A DNA stretch of 64,000 nucleotides, from contig CAZEED010000001.1 in assembly GCA_964510945.1 (NCBI GenBank), forward strand, positions 98,774-162,773, in the 5' to 3' direction. Source of the stretch: an uncultured Candidatus Saccharibacteria bacterium. Its GTDB lineage: Bacteria; Patescibacteriota; Saccharimonadia; Saccharimonadales; JAGQNJ01. Numbering within the stretch: position 1 is the first letter of the stretch; every line of letters starts with the position of its first letter. The translations under genes were made by a program, and so were the position numbers. Shown here piece by piece: positions 31,093 through 38,277 of this stretch. The notes beneath the pieces are model-generated. The model did not search any database. It was not told the DNA's origin and was given only the letters and a program-made list of their open reading frames with translations.

Positions 31093-33180
31093 ATGGCGGA
31101 CAAAAAATCAGATCTAAAAAATTATAGAAATATCGGTATTATAGCGCATATTGATGCTGGTAAAACTACAACAACAGAGGGTATTCTTTACCGTACTGGC
31201 TTAAAGCACAAAATTGGTGCAGTTCACGAAGGTGAAACGACCACCGACTGGATGGAACAAGAACGCGAACGCGGTATCACCATCACATCTGCCGCGGTTA
31301 CCTGTTTCTGGAAAGATCACAAGATCAACATCATAGACACACCTGGGCACATTGACTTCACCGCCGAAGTTGAACGTAGCCTAAGAGTACTAGATGGTGC
31401 TGTAACAGTATTTGACGGCAAAATGGGTGTCGAGAGTCAATCAGAGACAGTATGGCGTCAAGCGAACAAATATAATGTCCCTCGGATCTGTTTTATTAAC
31501 AAAATTAACCAAACAGGTGGCGATTTCTACAAATCACTTGATACTATTCACGCAAGGTTAACAAAACGTGCTTTTCCGATACATCTACCATTAGGTTTCG
31601 AACAGTCGATTAATGGAATCATTGATCTGATTAGTATGAAAGCATACACCTATAAAGAGTTTACTGATCACGAATTAGTCGAATCAGACATCCCAGAGAA
31701 TATGGCAGATCAGGTAAAGAAGTACCGAAGTCTATTGGTCGAAAACGCAGTAGCCGAAGATGAAAAAATCCTAGAAAAATTCTTCGAAGTTGGAGAAGAT
31801 GGATTATCAGAGGATGAAATAAGGCAAGCCGTCCGAACAGCAACACTTACCAGTGATTTCTTCCCTGTAACGGGTGGTGATGGTCGCGGGGTGATTGTAG
31901 AGAAAGTCCTTGATGCAGTTAATGACTTTTTACCAAGCCCACTAGATCGTGGCTCTGTCTGGGGCACACATCCTAAGAGTGGCGATGAGATTGAAAGAAA
32001 ACCTTCAGAGTCTGAGCCAATGTCAGCTTTAGCGTTTAAAATTGCAACTGATCCTTTTGTAGGTAAATTATGCTTTGTAAGAGTATATTCAGGTAAGTTG
32101 CAGGCAGGATCATATGTCTATAACAGCTCTACAGGCGAAAAAGAACGTGTTGGACGCGTTGTACGTATGCAAGCCGATAAACGAGAAGACATTACAGAGA
32201 TTAGCGCTGGTGACATAGCTGCGATAGTAGGCCTAAAAGGTACTACGACTGGTAATACCCTATGTGACGTAAATAACACAGTTGTACTCGAGAATATTAC
32301 TTTCCCTGATCCACCGGTATCGATTGCCATTGAGCCAAAAACTAAAGCCGATCAAGAAAAGATGGGTATTGCTTTGCAAAGACTAGCCGAAGAAGATCCA
32401 ACCTTCCAAGTAAAGGTTGATCACGAGACAGGGCAAACAATTATTAAAGGGATGGGTGAATTGCACCTCGAAATCATTGTCGATCGAATGAAAAGAGAAT
32501 TTGCTGTTGAGGCTAACATTGGTCAACCGCAAGTTGCTTATCGCGAGACAATCCGAAAAGATGGTGTTGAAGTACAAGGCAAATTTATCCGACAATCAGG
32601 TGGACGAGGTCAATATGGTGACGTTTGGCTGCGACTTTCGCAAAATGAACAAGGTAAGGGCTTTGAATTCATCAACAAAATTAAGGGTGGTGTGATTCCT
32701 GCAGAATATATTAAGCCAGTTGAAGAGGGAATCAAAGAAGCCATGAGCAATGGAGTACTCGCTGGATATCCAGTCGTAGACATCGTTGCCGAACTTTATG
32801 ATGGTAGCTATCATGACGTGGACTCTAGTGAAATGGCCTTTAAAGTTGCAGGATCTATGGCATTACAAGCGGGTGTTAAACAAGCTGCGCCAGTATTACT
32901 AGAGCCAGTGATGAAAGTAGTAGTTGTTACACCTGAAGAGTTTATGGGTGAAGTTATTGGTGACCTTAATAGTAAACGTGGTCGTATCGAGTCTATGGAA
33001 GATCTAACAGCCGGTATTAAAGAAATTACAGCCTTTGTACCACTCGGAGAAATGTTTGGCTACACTACTAATCTACGTAGCAATACACAAGGTCGCGCTA
33101 GCTCAAGCATGGAGCTGGATCACTACGCTGATGTTCCAAGCCACGTAGCCGAAGCAATCATCGCCAAAAACAGTAAATAA
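31093..33180 (+). CDS. fusA: Elongation factor G
   Basis: 695 aa; [24 protein letters not shown](Q). Confidence 0.97.
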
Positions 33181-33241
33181 CATATTCATATAAATATATA
33201 GAAAAATCTCAAAGAATTAAATTTCAACACCTAGACAAATG

Positions 33242-34048
33242 CTATTTATTTATATTCGTTCCGTCTCCGAATAATTTACCAGAATTAAAATCAGCGCGCA
33301 TCCCCGTATAATCGCCAGTAGGTAACTGTATACTCCTAACCCTTATTGCAGCAATATCTATAGGATCTCCCATGACCGCTACATACATTCTCGCTTTTAC
33401 TTGTCTATTGACTGGGGTGCCATAGTCATCAGTGTCATATATGTACTCGTTAAAGCCGTAGCAACCTATTCTACGTGCAGTCTTATTACTTTCTTGTCGA
33501 TGGTCATAACTACTATTACTAGTTGTATACCATGATCTTGTTCCTTCTCTGTATAAACGAATGCTAACATGCGTATTCCAACTTTTTGCTTTCCAGCAAA
33601 GCTGTACTGCCATCGGACGATTACGAGTGTTTTCGGGCTTTGGAATGATAAAAGACTTTGATATATAGGTCATTCTTGGCGTATATAGACTAGTTCTAGA
33701 TCTCCAACCATTTATTTTACGCCCTTTAGAATTAGTGGATACTTTGATCTTGTGGCCAACAGACCTCCAATTTACTTGCGGAATACTAGTATCATACTGA
33801 TCTTCATTATTATTTTCTGCTGCTGCGTCGTCGTAGTTGAGTACTTTAATAGGTTTTTTCTCTACTATATCCCCAGCCGGATATGTTTTGCTGTAACCCT
33901 TCGATTGCGCGTCTGAATTTCTGATGTTGAATAAATCATTTTTGTATGCGAATACCCCTAAAGCTAACACTAAACCAATCAATAGCGACATAACTAATAT
34001 TGGTTGAAATCTACGATTTGTAGTTTTAGTTTTATTATTTGACTTCAT
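33242..34048 (-). CDS. Membrane-anchored two-Cys extracytoplasmic protein, paralog 1 (unrecognised family)
   Basis: 268 aa; basic N-tail plus TM (ILVMSLLIGLVLALGVFAY). Shares DLFNIRNSDAQSK.YSKTYPAG, RPMAVQLCWKA, GCYGF, IAAIRV with the two downstream paralogs. Confidence 0.6.
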   Translation of the reverse strand: MKSNNKTKTTNRRFQPILVMSLLIGLVLALGVFAYKNDLFNIRNSDAQSKGYSKTYPAGDIVEKKPIKVLNYDDAAAENNNEDQYDTSIPQVNWRSVGHKIKVSTNSKGRKINGWRSRTSLYTPRMTYISKSFIIPKPENTRNRPMAVQLCWKAKSWNTHVSIRLYREGTRSWYTTSNSSYDHRQESNKTARRIGCYGFNEYIYDTDDYGTPVNRQVKARMYVAVMGDPIDIAAIRVRSIQLPTGDYTGMRADFNSGKLFGDGTNINK

Positions 34049-34080
34049 ATGTTTAGTCTCATTTCAATTATTTAATATAA

Positions 34081-34881
34081 TTATCTTGTGATGTCCGTTT
34101 CGAATTGTCTCAGGTAATATCCATTACTGTCGTGTTCTTGTGGTTTTGTTGGTTCAAAGATTTTAATAGATGCCAGTTCAATGCCACCTTCAGGTACTTT
34201 AATGAAGAGTTTTGCTTTTATGGATTTTTTTATTCTTACCGCGTATTGTCCTCGATGTATTGGCTCACTCTGCGGATGTGATCTAGGTACGACAGATTTA
34301 TAGCCAACATCATAAAAACCCCAGCAAGCAATTTCGCGATACCGATTAGGATCGCTTTCATATCGATGGGTGAAATTTATATGATATGCTCCATCCTTGG
34401 TCCCCCACACTTTATTGATATCTCTACTCAAACGTAGTTTTATGGTTGTATTCTTTTCTAGAGCTCGCCAGCAAACATACACAGCCATTGGACGTTTTGA
34501 TGTAGGAATGGTAAACCATTTACTGAAGTAGACCCATCCTTCGTTATCTAGAGTGTGTTTTTCATCGGCGTGATTCATCCTCCAACCATCAATCATAGGG
34601 CCACCTGGTTTAGCGGGCATACGAATATTCCCGCCTTGAGATTTAACCGATACTAACTTACCTCTGTAATACTTGAATGGTGTGGGTTTGTAATTAACTA
34701 TTTTTCCCGCAGCATAGGTTTTATTATATCGTTTAGAATCCGCCGACGAATCTTTTAGATTCAGCAAATCCATACTAAAAATAACAAGTCCAATTACGAA
34801 TATTAATATAATTGAAAAAGTTATAATTTTTGATTTATTTGATAATTTAAGATCCTTATTTTTCTTTTTTTTGTTTGCCAT
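34081..34881 (-). CDS. Membrane-anchored two-Cys extracytoplasmic protein, paralog 2
   Basis: 266 aa; MANKKKKNKDLKLS tail, TM, NIRMPAKPGGPMIDGWR, RPMAVYVCWRA, IACWGFYD, LASIKIF; SD AAGGA before the ATG. Confidence 0.65.
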   Translation of the reverse strand: MANKKKKNKDLKLSNKSKIITFSIILIFVIGLVIFSMDLLNLKDSSADSKRYNKTYAAGKIVNYKPTPFKYYRGKLVSVKSQGGNIRMPAKPGGPMIDGWRMNHADEKHTLDNEGWVYFSKWFTIPTSKRPMAVYVCWRALEKNTTIKLRLSRDINKVWGTKDGAYHINFTHRYESDPNRYREIACWGFYDVGYKSVVPRSHPQSEPIHRGQYAVRIKKSIKAKLFIKVPEGGIELASIKIFEPTKPQEHDSNGYYLRQFETDITR

Positions 34882-34912
34882 ATTTGTCCTTAGCTACATT
34901 TATTAGTTATCT

Positions 34913-35869
34913 TTAATTGGTGATGTCAGATTCAAACTGTCTATCGTAATAATTTGCACCGAGTTTAGATCTTTCAGGCGGTTGTGTTGGGTGAAAAACT
35001 TTTATTGAAGCAATTTCTACTTGGCCACGAACCTTTATATTAATTCTAGCCTTAATGGATTTGGATTTATTCATTTTTTTCATGTATTGCCCTGGATATA
35101 TTGGCTCGTTTTGCGGATGTGATCTAGGCACGACACGTTCATAGGCGATATCGTAAAAACCCCAACATTTTATTTTTTGCCACTCATCGTCACCATGTTC
35201 ATAACGATGTATATAGTTCATTATAGGCGCGCCATTTTTGTCTGACCATAATTCTCGTCTATTCTTGTTACTGAGCGTAGGACCTGCGAATAGAAGTTTT
35301 AATGATGTTTCTTTGCCGGACAATGATCTCCAGCAGACATATAAAGCTAGCGGTTTATCACTCTTGTCTTTTGGGATATTTATTTCTTTTGAAAAATAAG
35401 ACCAGTCAGGTAAATATGTAGTAAGTCTAGGGTTTACAGCTTTTTTATTGGGTTTTAACTTTTTAAAAAGTTTATCGTAGGTTGATGAGTTAACTAATGG
35501 CGATCGCCATCCCTTAATCATAGGACCTCCTGGTTTGGCAGGCATTCTTATGTTCTTTCCTAAAGATTTCATCATTACAAAATCATCGTCGCCGTATATT
35601 CCGCTATCTTTACGAACTTTTGTTTTGCCGTAGTTAACGATTTCGCCGGCTGGGTAAGTTCTATTGTAATTCTTAGAATCTGCAGATGAGTCTCTTAGAT
35701 TCAGCAAATCCATACTATAAATTAATAATGCAAGTACAATTACTAATAAAATTGAAAAAGTTATAATTTTTGTTTTATTTGATAATTTAAGATTCTTATT
35801 TTTCTTTTTTTGTTTGGCATTTTCTCTCCTATACTTAAGCATTATACATAACACACTAATTGATTCCAA
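34913..35869 (-). CDS. Membrane-anchored two-Cys extracytoplasmic protein, paralog 3 (conserved ATG at 35820 is out of frame because of an A7 tract)
   Basis: ORF open to 35869. The homolog of the paralog-2 start (ATG 35820 behind AGGAGAG) is in the +1 frame. Motifs NIRMPAKPGGPMIKGWR, KPLALYVCWRS, IKCWGFYD, IASIKVF. Confidence 0.55.
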   Translation of the reverse strand: MESISVLCIMLKYRRENAKQKKKNKNLKLSNKTKIITFSILLVIVLALLIYSMDLLNLRDSSADSKNYNRTYPAGEIVNYGKTKVRKDSGIYGDDDFVMMKSLGKNIRMPAKPGGPMIKGWRSPLVNSSTYDKLFKKLKPNKKAVNPRLTTYLPDWSYFSKEINIPKDKSDKPLALYVCWRSLSGKETSLKLLFAGPTLSNKNRRELWSDKNGAPIMNYIHRYEHGDDEWQKIKCWGFYDIAYERVVPRSHPQNEPIYPGQYMKKMNKSKSIKARINIKVRGQVEIASIKVFHPTQPPERSKLGANYYDRQFESDITN

Positions 35870-36034
35870 TTTCTTATTTTATGTACTCTATTAACTATAA
35901 TTAAGAGTTAAAAGAATAATCCAAAAATGATTCTTTACTTGTATGCGTATTTTCGCTATTATATTCAGGTATCTCGCGTGAGTATTATATACTTATGCTA
36001 AATAATTAAGTAATTAACAGGAGTAACAACTAAA

Positions 36035-37216
36035 ATGGCAGATTTTGATCGAAGTAAACCACACGTAAACGTTGGAACAATGGGGCACGTTGACCATGGT
36101 AAAACAACACTAACAGCAGCAATTACAGCTGTACTAGCTAAAAAGCTTCCTAGCGACGTTAACAAACCAGTTAAATACGACGAAATTGACAAAGCACCAG
36201 AAGAAAAAGCACGTGGTATAACAATTGCGACATCTCACCAAGAATACGAGAGTAAAAAACGACACTACGCACACGTTGATATGCCAGGTCACGCTGACTA
36301 CGTCAAGAACATGATTACAGGTGCCGCACAGATTGACGGAGCGATTCTAGTAGTATCAGCTGCAGATGGCCCTATGCCTCAAACACGAGAACACGTACTA
36401 CTCGCAAAACAGGTCGGCGTTCCATCGATACTTGTATTCATGAACAAGATGGACCTTGCAGATCCAGAACTAGTTGAACTAGTAGAAATGGACATTCGTG
36501 AACTACTCGGCAAATACGAATTCGACGAGAACGCTCCAATTATTAAAGGTTCTGCAACTAAAGCTCTTGAAGGTAGTGCCGCAGATGAAGATGCCGTTAT
36601 GGAACTTGTCGACAAGATGGACGAATATGTTCCAGAACCAAAACGAGACCTTGATAAAGACTTCTTGATGGCTATTGAAGACGTTTTCTCAATTAAAGGA
36701 CGCGGAACTGTAGCAACCGGTCGTATTGAACAAGGAGTTGTTAAGGTAAACGAAGAAGTTGAAATTGTCGGTATCCATGATACAAAAAAGACTGTTGTTA
36801 CAGGTGTAGAGATGTTTAAAAAGAATCTAGATCAAGGTCAGGCTGGAGATAACGTCGGAATCTTACTTCGAGGTATCGAACGTGATGATATCGAACGTGG
36901 TCAAGTTTTGGCTAAACCCGGTTCAATTACGCCTCACACAGAATTTGACGCAGAAGTATACGTGCTAACAAAAGAAGAGGGTGGACGACACACCCCATTC
37001 TTTAAAGGTTACAAACCTCAATTCTACTTCCGAACAACGGACGTTACAGGTGAGGTAGAACTACCGGCTGATAAAGAAATGGTCATGCCTGGTGATACAG
37101 TAACTTTCAAGGTTAAATTGATCCAACCGATTGCTATGGATCAAGGTCAACGATTCGCCATCCGTGAAGGTGGACGAACAGTTGGCGCCGGTGTTGTAAC
37201 AAAAATTACAAAATAA
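36035..37216 (+). CDS. tuf: Elongation factor Tu
   Basis: 393 aa; [25 protein letters not shown]. Confidence 0.98.
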
Positions 37217-38013: not shown

Positions 38014-38277
38014 ATGGCAAAAAAACAAAAACGTATAAGAGAAACAGACGATGCATATTTCTTAAAACTAGTATTATTCATGATCTTGGGATCAATGTGG
38101 TTAAAAGTCAGTGATGGTCAATCTTGGCAAATTCCGTTACCCATAGGACTAGTTTTCGGAATACTACTGGCGAGACATGACCATTTTAGGATAGATCGTA
38201 AAATAGAATATGCTGTGCTACTAATTGCAGCGTTTGTGGGTTTTTGGGCGCCAATAGGGATTTATATTAATCTGTAA
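38014..38277 (+). CDS. Small hydrophobic protein (about 3 TM) inserted between rpsJ and rplC
   Basis: 87-aa ORF; TACAAT (38002-38007) lies 6 nt before the ATG, no SD; no family recognised. Confidence 0.45.
   Translation: MAKKQKRIRETDDAYFLKLVLFMILGSMWLKVSDGQSWQIPLPIGLVFGILLARHDHFRIDRKIEYAVLLIAAFVGFWAPIGIYINL

What the first reader, a model, noticed from the sequence alone, without database searches (positions are those of the whole stretch)
35805..35842. A7 versus A8 coding-strand homopolymer uncouples paralog 3 from its conserved start: candidate phase-variable switch or fresh pseudogene
Seen: paralog 2 starts ATG GCA AAC AAA AAA AAG AAA AAT AAG (plus-strand T8 at 34865-34872), giving MANKKKKNK. 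Paralog 3 has the homologous ATG at 35820, behind AGGAGAG, followed by CCAAAC, A7 (plus-strand T7 at 35805-35811) and GAAAAATAAG. From that ATG the reading is MPNKKRKIRILNYQIKQKL-stop. With A8 it would read MPNKKKKNKNLKLS and continue into the 300-aa ORF.

The long ORF stays open upstream only through sequence that contains a TATAAT box and has no SD.

Established: slipped-strand mispairing at homopolymers in 5' coding regions is a classic ON/OFF mechanism for surface proteins.

Inference: this locus is either in the OFF phase or recently inactivated.
Basis: partly seen in the sequence, partly recalled or inferred. Interest (0 to 1): 0.6.

Follow-up and report, generated by a model that had tools for sequence, protein, structure and literature searches.

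The report
One-base poly(A) frameshift silences surface-protein gene
In a Saccharibacteria (TM7) genome, the first of three tandem surface-protein genes has lost one A from a run of eight just after its start codon, so it is genetically switched off; this resembles the known 5' poly(A) on/off alleles of Listeria inlA, and rapid reversible switching is not shown.

Summary
On the minus strand, SD AGGAGAG and ATG (35820) are followed by CCAAAC-A7-G. That frame stops after 19 codons, and one extra A restores a 302-aa protein.

The lesion is real. Seven other assemblies from at least five sequencing projects are 99.8-100% identical and all carry A7 in paralog 3 and A8 in paralog 2. No A8 version exists among about 15 billion proteins.

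An ortholog in an 85%-identical lineage keeps the same promoter, SD and ATGCCAAAC with A8 in frame, so A8 is ancestral. The two upstream "starts" used by database gene callers lie inside the -10 and -35 promoter hexamers.

The same ATGCCAAAC-A7 lesion occurs in a paralog-2 ortholog of another lineage. Runs of 8 or more A/T are almost confined to this gene family: 17 of 20 across 141 kb, and the only one in the window.

Saccharibacteria reportedly lack MutS/MutL. There is no downstream RNA structure, no canonical slippery heptamer, and the out-of-frame state is not conserved.

Best reading: a recent slippage-made null (OFF) allele at a hotspot tract in a membrane-anchored, CBM-like protein family. 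It is analogous to Listeria inlA A7/A6. Whether reversion is frequent enough to be true phase variation is untested.

The parts
35841..35869 (-). Promoter of the three-gene array: TTGGAA (-35), 17-nt spacer, TATAAT (-10). It includes the family-invariant motif TGTATAATGCTTAAGTATA, which extends to about 35833.
   Evidence: Consensus scan gives 10 of 12 matches. The motif is invariant in 7 lineages of 75-86% identity while its flanks diverge. The database start codons ATG 35842 (P0001) and TTG 35869 (P0016) lie inside these hexamers.
35824..35830 (-). Shine-Dalgarno AGGAGAG, 3 nt upstream of the ancestral ATG.
   Evidence: Sequence. Conserved as AGGAGA in ortholog L007.
35818..35820 (-). Ancestral start codon ATG of paralog 3.
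   Evidence: Homologous to the ATG of paralog 2 and of ortholog L007/P0003, which begins MPNKKKKKKNLKLS.
35805..35811 (-). Poly(A) tract of length 7 (plus-strand T7). It is one base short of the in-frame ancestral A8 and is the site of the -1 nt slippage lesion.
   Evidence: A8 is found at the homologous site in paralog 2, L007, L008 and L019.
35761..35820 (-). The 19-codon truncated reading frame actually served by the SD and ATG: MPNKKRKIRILNYQIKQKL, then TAA.
   Evidence: Translation.
34913..35804 (-). Body of paralog 3 in the -1 frame. It encodes a K-rich N-terminus, a TM helix and a CBM-like beta-sandwich ectodomain. The frame is intact to its stop, but there is no ATG, GTG or TTG between the predicted transcription start and the TM helix.
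34081..34881 (-). Paralog 2, intact at 266 aa, with its in-frame A8 tract at 34865-34872. This is the only A/T run of 8 or more in the window.
33242..34048 (-). Paralog 1, intact at 268 aa and a more divergent family member. It is the last gene of the array, which lies antisense between fusA and tuf.

Best explanation
Paralog 3 carries a single-base contraction (A8 to A7) of a slippage-prone poly(A) tract at codons 4-6.

The conserved promoter, SD and ATG still work, but they now feed a 19-codon frame. The 300-codon body sits in the -1 frame with no start codon of its own. The gene is therefore a genetic null (OFF) allele.

The lesion arose recently by strand slippage during replication, in an organism whose phylum lacks MutS/MutL. 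It is fixed in one near-clonal population sampled many times.

The tract belongs to a family-wide set of 5' A8 tracts that are essentially the only A/T runs of 8 or more tolerated in these genomes. They have been hit at least twice by the same lesion. The site therefore behaves as a mutational ON/OFF hotspot of the Listeria inlA A7/A6 type. It is reversible in principle by re-insertion of one A, at a rate that appears too low to produce mixed consensus states.

- Shown: the lesion, its reality, the ancestral state, its recency, its recurrence, and the tract enrichment.
- Inferred: the slippage mechanism, lack of protein expression, surface location, reversibility, and a possible polar effect on paralogs 2 and 1, which share the single promoter.
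For: - Exact anatomy of the lesion.
- Ortholog L007 (85.6% nt identity) has an identical promoter/SD/ATGCCAAAC context with A8-G-A8-G in frame, and its upstream ATG is out of frame.
- Paralog 2, L008 and L019 have AAC-A8-G in frame.
- Seven other contigs come from SRR13355620/21/22, JGI 3300009873, SRR6032603, SRR31643649 and SRR8926550. They are 99.8-100% identical to the window and all show A7 in paralog 3 and A8 in paralog 2.
- The same ATGCCAAAC-A7-G frameshift occurs in the paralog-2 ortholog of L015 (85.7% lineage). There a TAG lies just upstream and no alternative start exists.
- The window has 37 A/T runs of length 7 but only 1 of length 8.
- The 8 KKK tripeptides outside the family are never encoded AAA-AAA-x.
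- 17 of 20 runs of 8 or more in 141 kb of window plus relatives lie in family genes, 14 of them in their 5' 200 nt. The binomial P is 4e-17 but overstated, because homologous sites are not independent.
- The ORF is intact. Pairwise dN/dS against L007 is 0.38. Changes on the window branch are 24 synonymous and 30 nonsynonymous, against 16 and 37 on the intact L007 branch.
- Saccharibacteria show no MutS/MutL (PMC8406219).
- Listeria inlA 5' A7/A6 alleles have independent origins and a measured A6->A7 reversion rate of about 5.5e-7 (PMC2831843).
Against: - No read-level data were available, so minority A8 subpopulations cannot be excluded or shown.
- All eight assemblies are one clone, so they say nothing about selection after the frameshift.
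- The two A7 alleles may not be independent. The first 30 nt of L015 gene 2 match window paralog 3 while its TM region matches paralog 2, which suggests gene conversion.
- Both A7 alleles have perfectly intact bodies. That pattern would also fit continued expression by recoding.
- Enrichment of A8 in a K-rich N-terminus of weakly constrained genes could reflect relaxed selection rather than a selected switch.
- Tract lengths seen are only 7 and 8, never 9 or more, unlike classic contingency loci.
Confidence: 0.6

Rival explanations
1. True contingency locus. The A7/A8 tract switches reversibly at high frequency within populations (classic slipped-strand phase variation). The sampled populations merely have OFF as the majority phase. 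The switch may also modulate the downstream paralogs through polarity.
For: - The tract sits in the 5' coding region of a predicted surface protein.
- The phylum lacks MutS/MutL.
- A8 tracts are strongly enriched in the family against a genome-wide ceiling of 7.
- ON and OFF alleles both exist among related lineages, and the identical lesion recurs.
- OFF alleles have undamaged bodies.
Against: - 8 of 8 consensus assemblies from at least five projects are A7 at paralog 3 and A8 at paralog 2, with no variation at either tract.
- Neither the A8-repaired protein nor the internal-start version, nor any fragment of it, exists among about 15 billion proteins.
- The tracts are short (7-8) and made of A/T.
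- No lengths of 9 or more occur anywhere in the family.
- Another relative inactivated its first paralog by a plain nonsense codon, which fits ordinary gene loss.
Confidence: 0.2
2. The A7 allele is still expressed by recoding. Either a -1 ribosomal slip occurs on C-AAA-AAA-G at codons 4-5, possibly aided by the initiation SD 13-14 nt upstream as in dnaX. Or RNA polymerase stutters and adds an A to part of the transcripts. Either way the normal MPNKKKKNK... protein would be made at a reduced level.
For: - A -1 shift on the tract yields exactly the ancestral protein.
- The SD-to-tract spacing is in the 10-14 nt range that is known, from my own knowledge of dnaX, to stimulate -1 shifts.
- Two A7 alleles have fully intact ORFs and dN/dS below 1.
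Against: - The zero-frame heptamer is C AAA AAA, not the canonical X XXY YYZ.
- The 136 nt around and downstream of the tract fold worse than shuffled sequence (z = +2.3), so there is no stimulatory hairpin or pseudoknot.
- There is no Rfam match.
- Orthologs and paralogs are in frame with A8, so the out-of-frame arrangement is not conserved.
- Seven A's is shorter than the runs of 9 or more that support efficient transcriptional slippage (own knowledge).
Confidence: 0.08
3. The gene is intact and simply starts further upstream, at ATG 35842 or TTG 35869, as database gene callers annotate it (P0001 at 309 aa, P0016 at 318 aa).
For: The ORF is open to those codons. Pipelines at NCBI, JGI and Logan called them.
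Against: - Both codons lie inside the -10 and -35 hexamers of the conserved promoter, so they should be absent from the mRNA.
- No SD precedes them.
- In L007 the same ATG is out of frame and the protein starts at ATGCCAAAC.
- In the L015 A7 allele a TAG closes the frame upstream, so no such start exists.
- The extension MLKYRRENAKQ has no counterpart in any homolog.
Confidence: 0.04
4. Sequencing or assembly error in a homopolymer, with the real tract being A8.
For: Homopolymers are error-prone on some platforms.
Against: Eight independent assemblies from different projects give identical A7 here and A8 at paralog 2, 940 nt away.
Confidence: 0.02

Closest known systems
Listeria monocytogenes inlA 5' poly(A) tract alleles (A7 in frame, A6 frameshifted with stop after 8 aa; Orsi et al. 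2010, PMC2831843)
   Same: - A short poly(A) run lies in the first few codons of a surface protein gene.
- Loss of one A gives a very short peptide.
- The OFF allele is fixed in whole lineages and arose more than once.
- It is reversible by re-insertion at a rate far above point mutation but far below classic phase variation (about 5.5e-7).
- The tract is enriched at the 5' end of genes.
   Different: - Here the lengths are A8/A7 rather than A7/A6.
- The host is an MMR-less, ultrasmall Saccharibacterium.
- The gene is the first of a tandem paralog array under one promoter.
- The A8 tract is above the genome's own homopolymer ceiling.
- No mutation rates have been measured.
Classic slipped-strand contingency loci (Neisseria, Haemophilus and Campylobacter poly-G/C tracts; Mycobacterium tuberculosis glpK 7C tract)
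   Same: A frameshifting homopolymer lies in the 5' coding region of a surface or host-interaction gene. ON and OFF alleles both occur among relatives. MMR absence is comparable to mycobacteria.
   Different: - No within-strain length polymorphism is seen in 8 assemblies.
- The tract is A/T and only 7-8 long.
- No lengths of 9 or more occur.
- Switching has not been demonstrated.
dnaX / IS3-type programmed -1 frameshifting and poly(A) transcriptional slippage in endosymbionts (reviewed in PMC5009743)
   Same: An A-rich slippery run with an SD 13-14 nt upstream. A -1 shift would give the functional product. The genome is AT-rich and reduced.
   Different: - No canonical heptamer in the incoming frame.
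- No downstream structure.
- The out-of-frame arrangement is not conserved in orthologs.
- The run is shorter than those that give efficient RNA polymerase slippage.
Carbohydrate-binding modules of the CBM35/CBM6/CBM36 beta-jelly-roll type (for the encoded protein)
   Different: - There is no sequence-level membership: no Pfam hit at E<=1 and only 5-13% identity.
- It is a stand-alone TM-anchored protein rather than a module of a glycoside hydrolase.
- Ligand and binding site are unknown.
- The family is restricted to about 31 clusters, and the two contigs whose records name an organism are Saccharibacteria.

Membership tests
Slipped-strand phase-variable (contingency) locus | Simple repeat or homopolymer in the coding region or promoter whose length sets the reading frame or expression | tested here: met
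   The A7 versus A8 tract at codons 4-6 decides the frame.
Slipped-strand phase-variable (contingency) locus | Tract-length polymorphism within a strain or population (mixed ON and OFF) | tested here: not met
   At consensus level, 8 of 8 assemblies of the clone have A7 (paralog 3) and A8 (paralog 2). No A8 or other-length product is in the protein collection. Read-level heterogeneity could not be tested.
Slipped-strand phase-variable (contingency) locus | Both in-frame and out-of-frame alleles among related strains, with recurrent change at the tract | tested here: met
   L007 ortholog has A8 in frame while the window has A7. L015 paralog-2 ortholog has A7 while the window and L008 have A8. 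Independence of the two A7 alleles is uncertain because gene conversion is possible.
Slipped-strand phase-variable (contingency) locus | High-frequency, reversible switching measured experimentally | not testable with these tools
   This needs cultures, amplicon deep sequencing or reporter fusions.
Slipped-strand phase-variable (contingency) locus | Repeat over-represented relative to genome background | tested here: met
   It is the only run of 8 or more in the 64-kb window. 17 of 20 such runs in 141 kb lie in family genes. KKK outside the family is never encoded AAA-AAA-x.
Programmed -1 ribosomal frameshift site | Canonical slippery heptamer X XXY YYZ in the incoming frame | tested here: not met
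   The incoming frame reads AAC AAA AAA AGA. The best heptamer is C AAA AAA, with a P-site mismatch.
Programmed -1 ribosomal frameshift site | Downstream stimulatory hairpin or pseudoknot | tested here: not met
   The MFE is -7.6 kcal/mol against a shuffle mean of -14.3, z = +2.29. No Rfam hit.
Programmed -1 ribosomal frameshift site | Frameshifted arrangement conserved across orthologs | tested here: not met
   Orthologs and paralogs are in frame with A8.
Pseudogene in decay | ORF disrupted relative to intact orthologs | tested here: met
   There is a frameshift relative to L007/P0003 and paralog 2.
Pseudogene in decay | Secondary lesions, relaxed selection, or loss of expression signals | tested here: not met
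   About 300 codons remain open. The promoter and SD are intact and conserved. The window branch has 24 synonymous and 30 nonsynonymous changes, no worse than the intact L007 branch at 16 and 37. If it is a pseudogene, it is a fresh one.
CBM35/CBM6-like carbohydrate-binding module (protein product) | Beta-jelly-roll fold | tested here: met
CBM35/CBM6-like carbohydrate-binding module (protein product) | Sequence-profile membership | tested here: not met
   No Pfam family at E<=1 for any of the three paralogs.
CBM35/CBM6-like carbohydrate-binding module (protein product) | Conserved sugar or Ca2+ binding residues and demonstrated glycan binding | not tested
   Model coordinates were not inspected, and biochemistry is needed.

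The most novel reading that the evidence does not exclude
In MutS/MutL-less Saccharibacteria, the family-wide 5' A8 tracts may be positively maintained contingency switches. They would toggle by A8<->A7 slippage, turning on and off members, and by polarity perhaps whole arrays, of CBM-like surface adhesins encoded antisense inside the ribosomal str/S10 gene cluster. This would be the first phase-variation system described in the Candidate Phyla Radiation, tuning recognition of host-cell surface glycans.

A still more exotic variant is that the A7 alleles are decoded by an initiation-SD-assisted -1 slip at codons 4-5.
Probability: 0.2. Interest if true: 0.65.

Novelty: new member of a known kind. 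Interest (0 to 1): 0.4.

Why it matters
In itself this is an ordinary and well-precedented event: a one-base homopolymer frameshift that silences a surface-protein gene.

- **Annotation.** The database proteins P0001 and P0016 start inside promoter hexamers. The locus should be flagged as frameshifted.
- **A testable lead.** A tiny lineage-specific family of membrane-anchored, CBM-like proteins holds essentially all A/T runs of 8 or more in genomes that otherwise cap runs at 7 and lack mismatch repair. Its members are repeatedly found knocked out at those runs.
- **What it could mean.** If read-level data showed length heterogeneity, this would be the first evidence of homopolymer phase variation in Patescibacteria. 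It would also point to these proteins as host-interaction factors under fluctuating selection.

Tried and rejected
- **Pfam.** A scan of the three paralogs found no family.
- **Rfam.** A scan of 33000-36200 at E<=0.1 found nothing.
- **Collection scans.** Scans with the family alignment gave only 2 genome loci and 1 metagenome locus. Most relatives therefore had to be fetched one at a time by exact protein look-up.
- **afdb50 fold search.** It was not available.
- **L012 gene 1.** It first looked like a third tract-associated frameshift, because GTG-TTT-ACC-A8-C is out of frame and A7 would be in frame. Comparison with L010 shows a 4-nt indel and further lesions upstream in A-rich sequence. 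I therefore do not count it.
- **L013/L014 gene 1.** It is disrupted by an in-frame TAA, not by a tract.
- **L006 and L018.** The two mismatches of L006 are at the contig end. L018 differs at one position whose location I did not determine. So there is no usable within-clone diversity to measure selection after the frameshift.
- **Mismatch-repair genes.** I looked for them in the window. The large ORFs tested are an M1 peptidase, a PBP transglycosylase, ClpB/ClpC-like and RecG. MMR status therefore rests on the literature.
- **Reinitiation.** Reinitiation after the 19-codon ORF was considered. The next canonical start in the body frame is the ATG of ...YSMDLL, after the TM helix. It would give an unanchored cytoplasmic product, so I rejected it as a functional route.
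- **Conservation of A8.** Conservation of A8 across lineages is weak evidence for selection, because only two synonymous sites are involved.

Full report
**Observation.** The sequence is exactly as described. The minus strand reads AGGAGAG-AAA-ATG(35820)-CCA-AAC-A7(35811-35805)-G-AAAAATAAG. From the ATG the frame gives MPNKKRKIRILNYQIKQKL and stops at TAA 35763-35761. Adding one A gives MPNKKKKNKNLKLS... and an uninterrupted 302-aa protein. Paralog 2 (34081-34881) has ATG-GCA-AAC-A8-G, with the tract at 34865-34872. The paralog 3 ORF stays open upstream to ATG 35842 and TTG 35869. These two codons sit inside the TATAAT and TTGGAA hexamers of a TTGGAA-17-TATAAT promoter match.

**Context.** The window is a 40% GC stretch carrying rpoB, rpoC, rpsL, rpsG, fusA, then tuf, rpsJ, rplC and onward on the plus strand. 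The three paralogs form a minus-strand island between fusA and tuf.

- Relatives with an organism name are 'uncultured Candidatus Saccharibacteria'.
- The same island, with 2 to 5 tandem copies, lies between tuf and fusA in every related contig long enough to show it.
- The family is tiny: 15 clusters by single-sequence search and 31 by profile search, among 5.8 billion clusters. It has no Pfam match.
- An AlphaFold model built on 32 sequences (pLDDT 82, pTM 0.76) shows a K-rich N-terminus, a TM helix at residues 15-39 and a beta-sandwich.

I therefore read the products as membrane-anchored, outward-facing, possibly glycan-binding proteins. This is an inference from fold and topology only.

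**Ancestral state and true start.** The closest paralog-3 ortholog is L007/P0003, at 85.6% nt identity.

- It has the same upstream sequence...TTATGTATAATGCTTAAGTATAGGAGA..., followed by ATGCCAAAC-A8-G-A8-G in frame, giving MPNKKKKKKNLKLS.
- In L007 the ATG inside TATAATG is out of frame.
- The motif T(G/A)T(A/T)TAATGCTTAAGTATA is invariant upstream of the first gene of the array in seven lineages, while the flanks diverge. It is therefore a real expression signal.
- Downstream of the predicted transcription start, the body frame has no ATG, GTG or TTG before the TM helix.

ATG 35820 is thus the conserved start, A8 is ancestral, and the window allele is a one-base deletion. The database proteins P0001 (MLKYRRENAKQ..., 309 aa) and P0016 (318 aa) are gene-caller artefacts that begin inside promoter hexamers.

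**Reality and population state.** Exact-protein look-ups returned seven further contigs. They come from SRR13355620, SRR13355621, SRR13355622, JGI 3300009873, SRR6032603, SRR31643649 and SRR8926550.

- Five are 100% identical to the window over 1.4-5.2 kb.
- One differs only at two bases at a contig end.
- One differs at a single base.
- All show A7 in paralog 3 and A8 in paralog 2.
- The A8-repaired 302-aa protein and the internal-start 266-aa version are absent from about 15 billion proteins. The 90% cluster holds only the two A7-derived calls.

The lesion is therefore not an artefact, and both tracts are stable at consensus level in this clone. Because the clone is essentially invariant, these data cannot tell whether selection still acts on the body.

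**Age of the lesion.**

- The body is open for about 300 codons.
- dN/dS against L007 is 0.38. For comparison, it is 0.15 for paralog 2 and 0.16 for paralog 1 against L008.
- With L016 as outgroup, the window branch carries 24 synonymous and 30 nonsynonymous changes. The intact L007 branch carries 16 and 37.

There is no sign of a long neutral phase. The frameshift is recent, or the gene is still useful.

**Recurrence and tract statistics.** In L015, an 85.7% lineage, the second gene of the array is a paralog-2 ortholog. It reads AAGGAAAAAAAATGCCAAAC-A7-GAAAAACAAG...: the same lesion, with a TAG just upstream that excludes any alternative start. The gene caller could only call it from MDLL..., after the TM helix (P0014).

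- Its branch dN/dS is about 0.26 by my three-point calculation, so this lesion is again fresh.
- Its first 30 nt resemble window paralog 3 and its TM segment resembles paralog 2. Gene conversion, rather than an independent deletion, is therefore possible.
- Other disruptions also exist in first paralogs: an in-frame TAA in L013/L014 and a messy 5' end in L012. Plain gene loss happens in this family too.

Genome-wide, the window has 128, 37 and 1 A/T runs of length 6, 7 and 8. The single A8 is paralog 2's tract (P about 6e-4). The eight KKK tripeptides outside the family never use AAA-AAA-x.

Over 141 kb of window plus eleven related loci, 17 of 20 runs of 8 or more lie in family genes, which make up 14% of the sequence. 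Fourteen lie in their 5' 200 nt, which is 3% of the sequence. These sites are partly homologous, so the nominal P of 4e-17 overstates independence. No run exceeds 8.

Jaffe et al. report no MutS or MutL in Saccharibacteria (PMC8406219). That would make long runs costly and explains the ceiling at 7.

**Rivals tested.**

- *Alternative start:* rejected as above.
- *Programmed -1 frameshifting:* the incoming-frame heptamer is C AAA AAA, which is not canonical. The 136 nt around the site fold worse than shuffles (z +2.29). Rfam finds nothing. Orthologs are in frame. The only positive feature is the initiation SD 13-14 nt upstream.
- *Transcriptional slippage:* seven A's is short for efficient stuttering (own knowledge).
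- *Artefact:* excluded by eight concordant assemblies.
- *Old pseudogene:* not supported by the intact body and signals.

**Mechanism proposed.** Replication slippage removed one A from an A8 tract that is at the edge of what this MMR-less genome tolerates. Ribosomes still initiate at ATG 35820 but terminate after 19 codons. The TM-anchored CBM-like protein is not made.

Paralogs 2 and 1 follow with 31-32 nt gaps and no promoter of their own. The roughly 850 nt of untranslated leader may therefore lower their expression, which is an inference.

Re-insertion of one A would restore the gene. The A7 state should be more stable than A8, so OFF alleles can persist and be fixed, as seen here. The closest precedent is Listeria inlA. 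There the 5' A7 is in frame, and A6 gives a stop after 8 aa. That allele arose at least twice and reverts at about 5.5e-7 (PMC2831843).

**Verdict.** The most likely reading (0.6) is a recent slippage-made null allele at a hotspot tract, an inlA-type ON/OFF site. Rapid, population-level phase variation (0.2) is neither shown nor excluded. Recoding (0.08), an upstream start (0.04) and artefact (0.02) are unlikely.

It is a new member of a known kind. Interest is moderate. It rests mainly on the family-wide confinement of A8 tracts in an MMR-less CPR lineage, which makes a first test of phase variation in Patescibacteria straightforward with read-level data.

Noticed in passing
window 35833-35869 (minus strand); L007, L009, L011, L013, L016, L017: An invariant motif, T(G/A)T(A/T)TAATGCTTAAGTATA, precedes the first gene of every array across lineages of 75-86% identity. 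It contains the -10 box and a near-palindromic ATGCTTAAGTAT core, which may be an operator. In L009, L011, L016 and L017 it is followed by a second TATAAT and an ATG about 13 nt later with no SD, suggesting a leaderless or near-leaderless mRNA in those lineages.
   Followed up: partly
window, whole 64 kb: There is a sharp homopolymer ceiling: A/T runs of length 6, 7 and 8 number 128, 37 and 1. Lys-Lys-Lys outside the family is never encoded AAA-AAA-x. This is consistent with the reported absence of MutS/MutL in Saccharibacteria.
   Followed up: partly
window 33242-35869 (minus strand), between fusA (31093-33180) and tuf (36035-37216): An antisense island of 2-5 tandem copies of a lineage-specific family interrupts the otherwise co-oriented rpoBC-str-S10 ribosomal gene cluster. 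The family has about 31 clusters worldwide, no Pfam match, and a TM anchor plus a CBM35/6-like beta-sandwich. It occupies the same position in all related contigs. tuf must therefore have its own promoter.
   Followed up: partly
P0001 and P0016 (database proteins for window 34913-35842 and 34913-35869): Public gene calls for paralog 3 start at an ATG inside the -10 hexamer or a TTG that is the -35 hexamer. They hide the frameshift, and the locus is not flagged as disrupted.
   Followed up: yes
L013 3749-4678 and L014 500-1429: The first paralog of a related array is split by an in-frame TAA, reading ...KIVTY*PIKMLKDSG. This is seen in two samples, so it is a nonsense pseudogene in a relative.
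   Followed up: partly
P0003 and P0005 (paralog-3 orthologs), P0014 (paralog-2 ortholog, L015): The same 17-20 residue loop, (x)VVPRSHPQxEPIxxGQY, is missing in members of two different paralog lineages. This suggests a recurrently deleted or exchanged variable loop in the ectodomain.
   Followed up: no
L015 756-880 versus window 35820-35700 and 34881-34760: The 5' end of L015 gene 2 is a mosaic. Its first 30 nt match window paralog 3 (ATGCCAAAC-A7) and its TM-coding part matches paralog 2. Together with the 81.5% identity of paralog 5' ends against much lower identity elsewhere, this points to gene conversion among paralog 5' ends.
   Followed up: partly
window 38014-38277 (+); L013 996-1259; L019 6930-7193: A conserved 87-aa hydrophobic ORF with no Pfam hit sits between rpsJ and rplC in this and related Saccharibacteria contigs.
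   Followed up: no
L017 7-20 and 916-929: The promoter motif occurs again immediately after the first family gene. Some lineages therefore carry two promoter-bearing units in tandem, unless this is a repeat-collapse artefact of a 936-nt contig.
   Followed up: no
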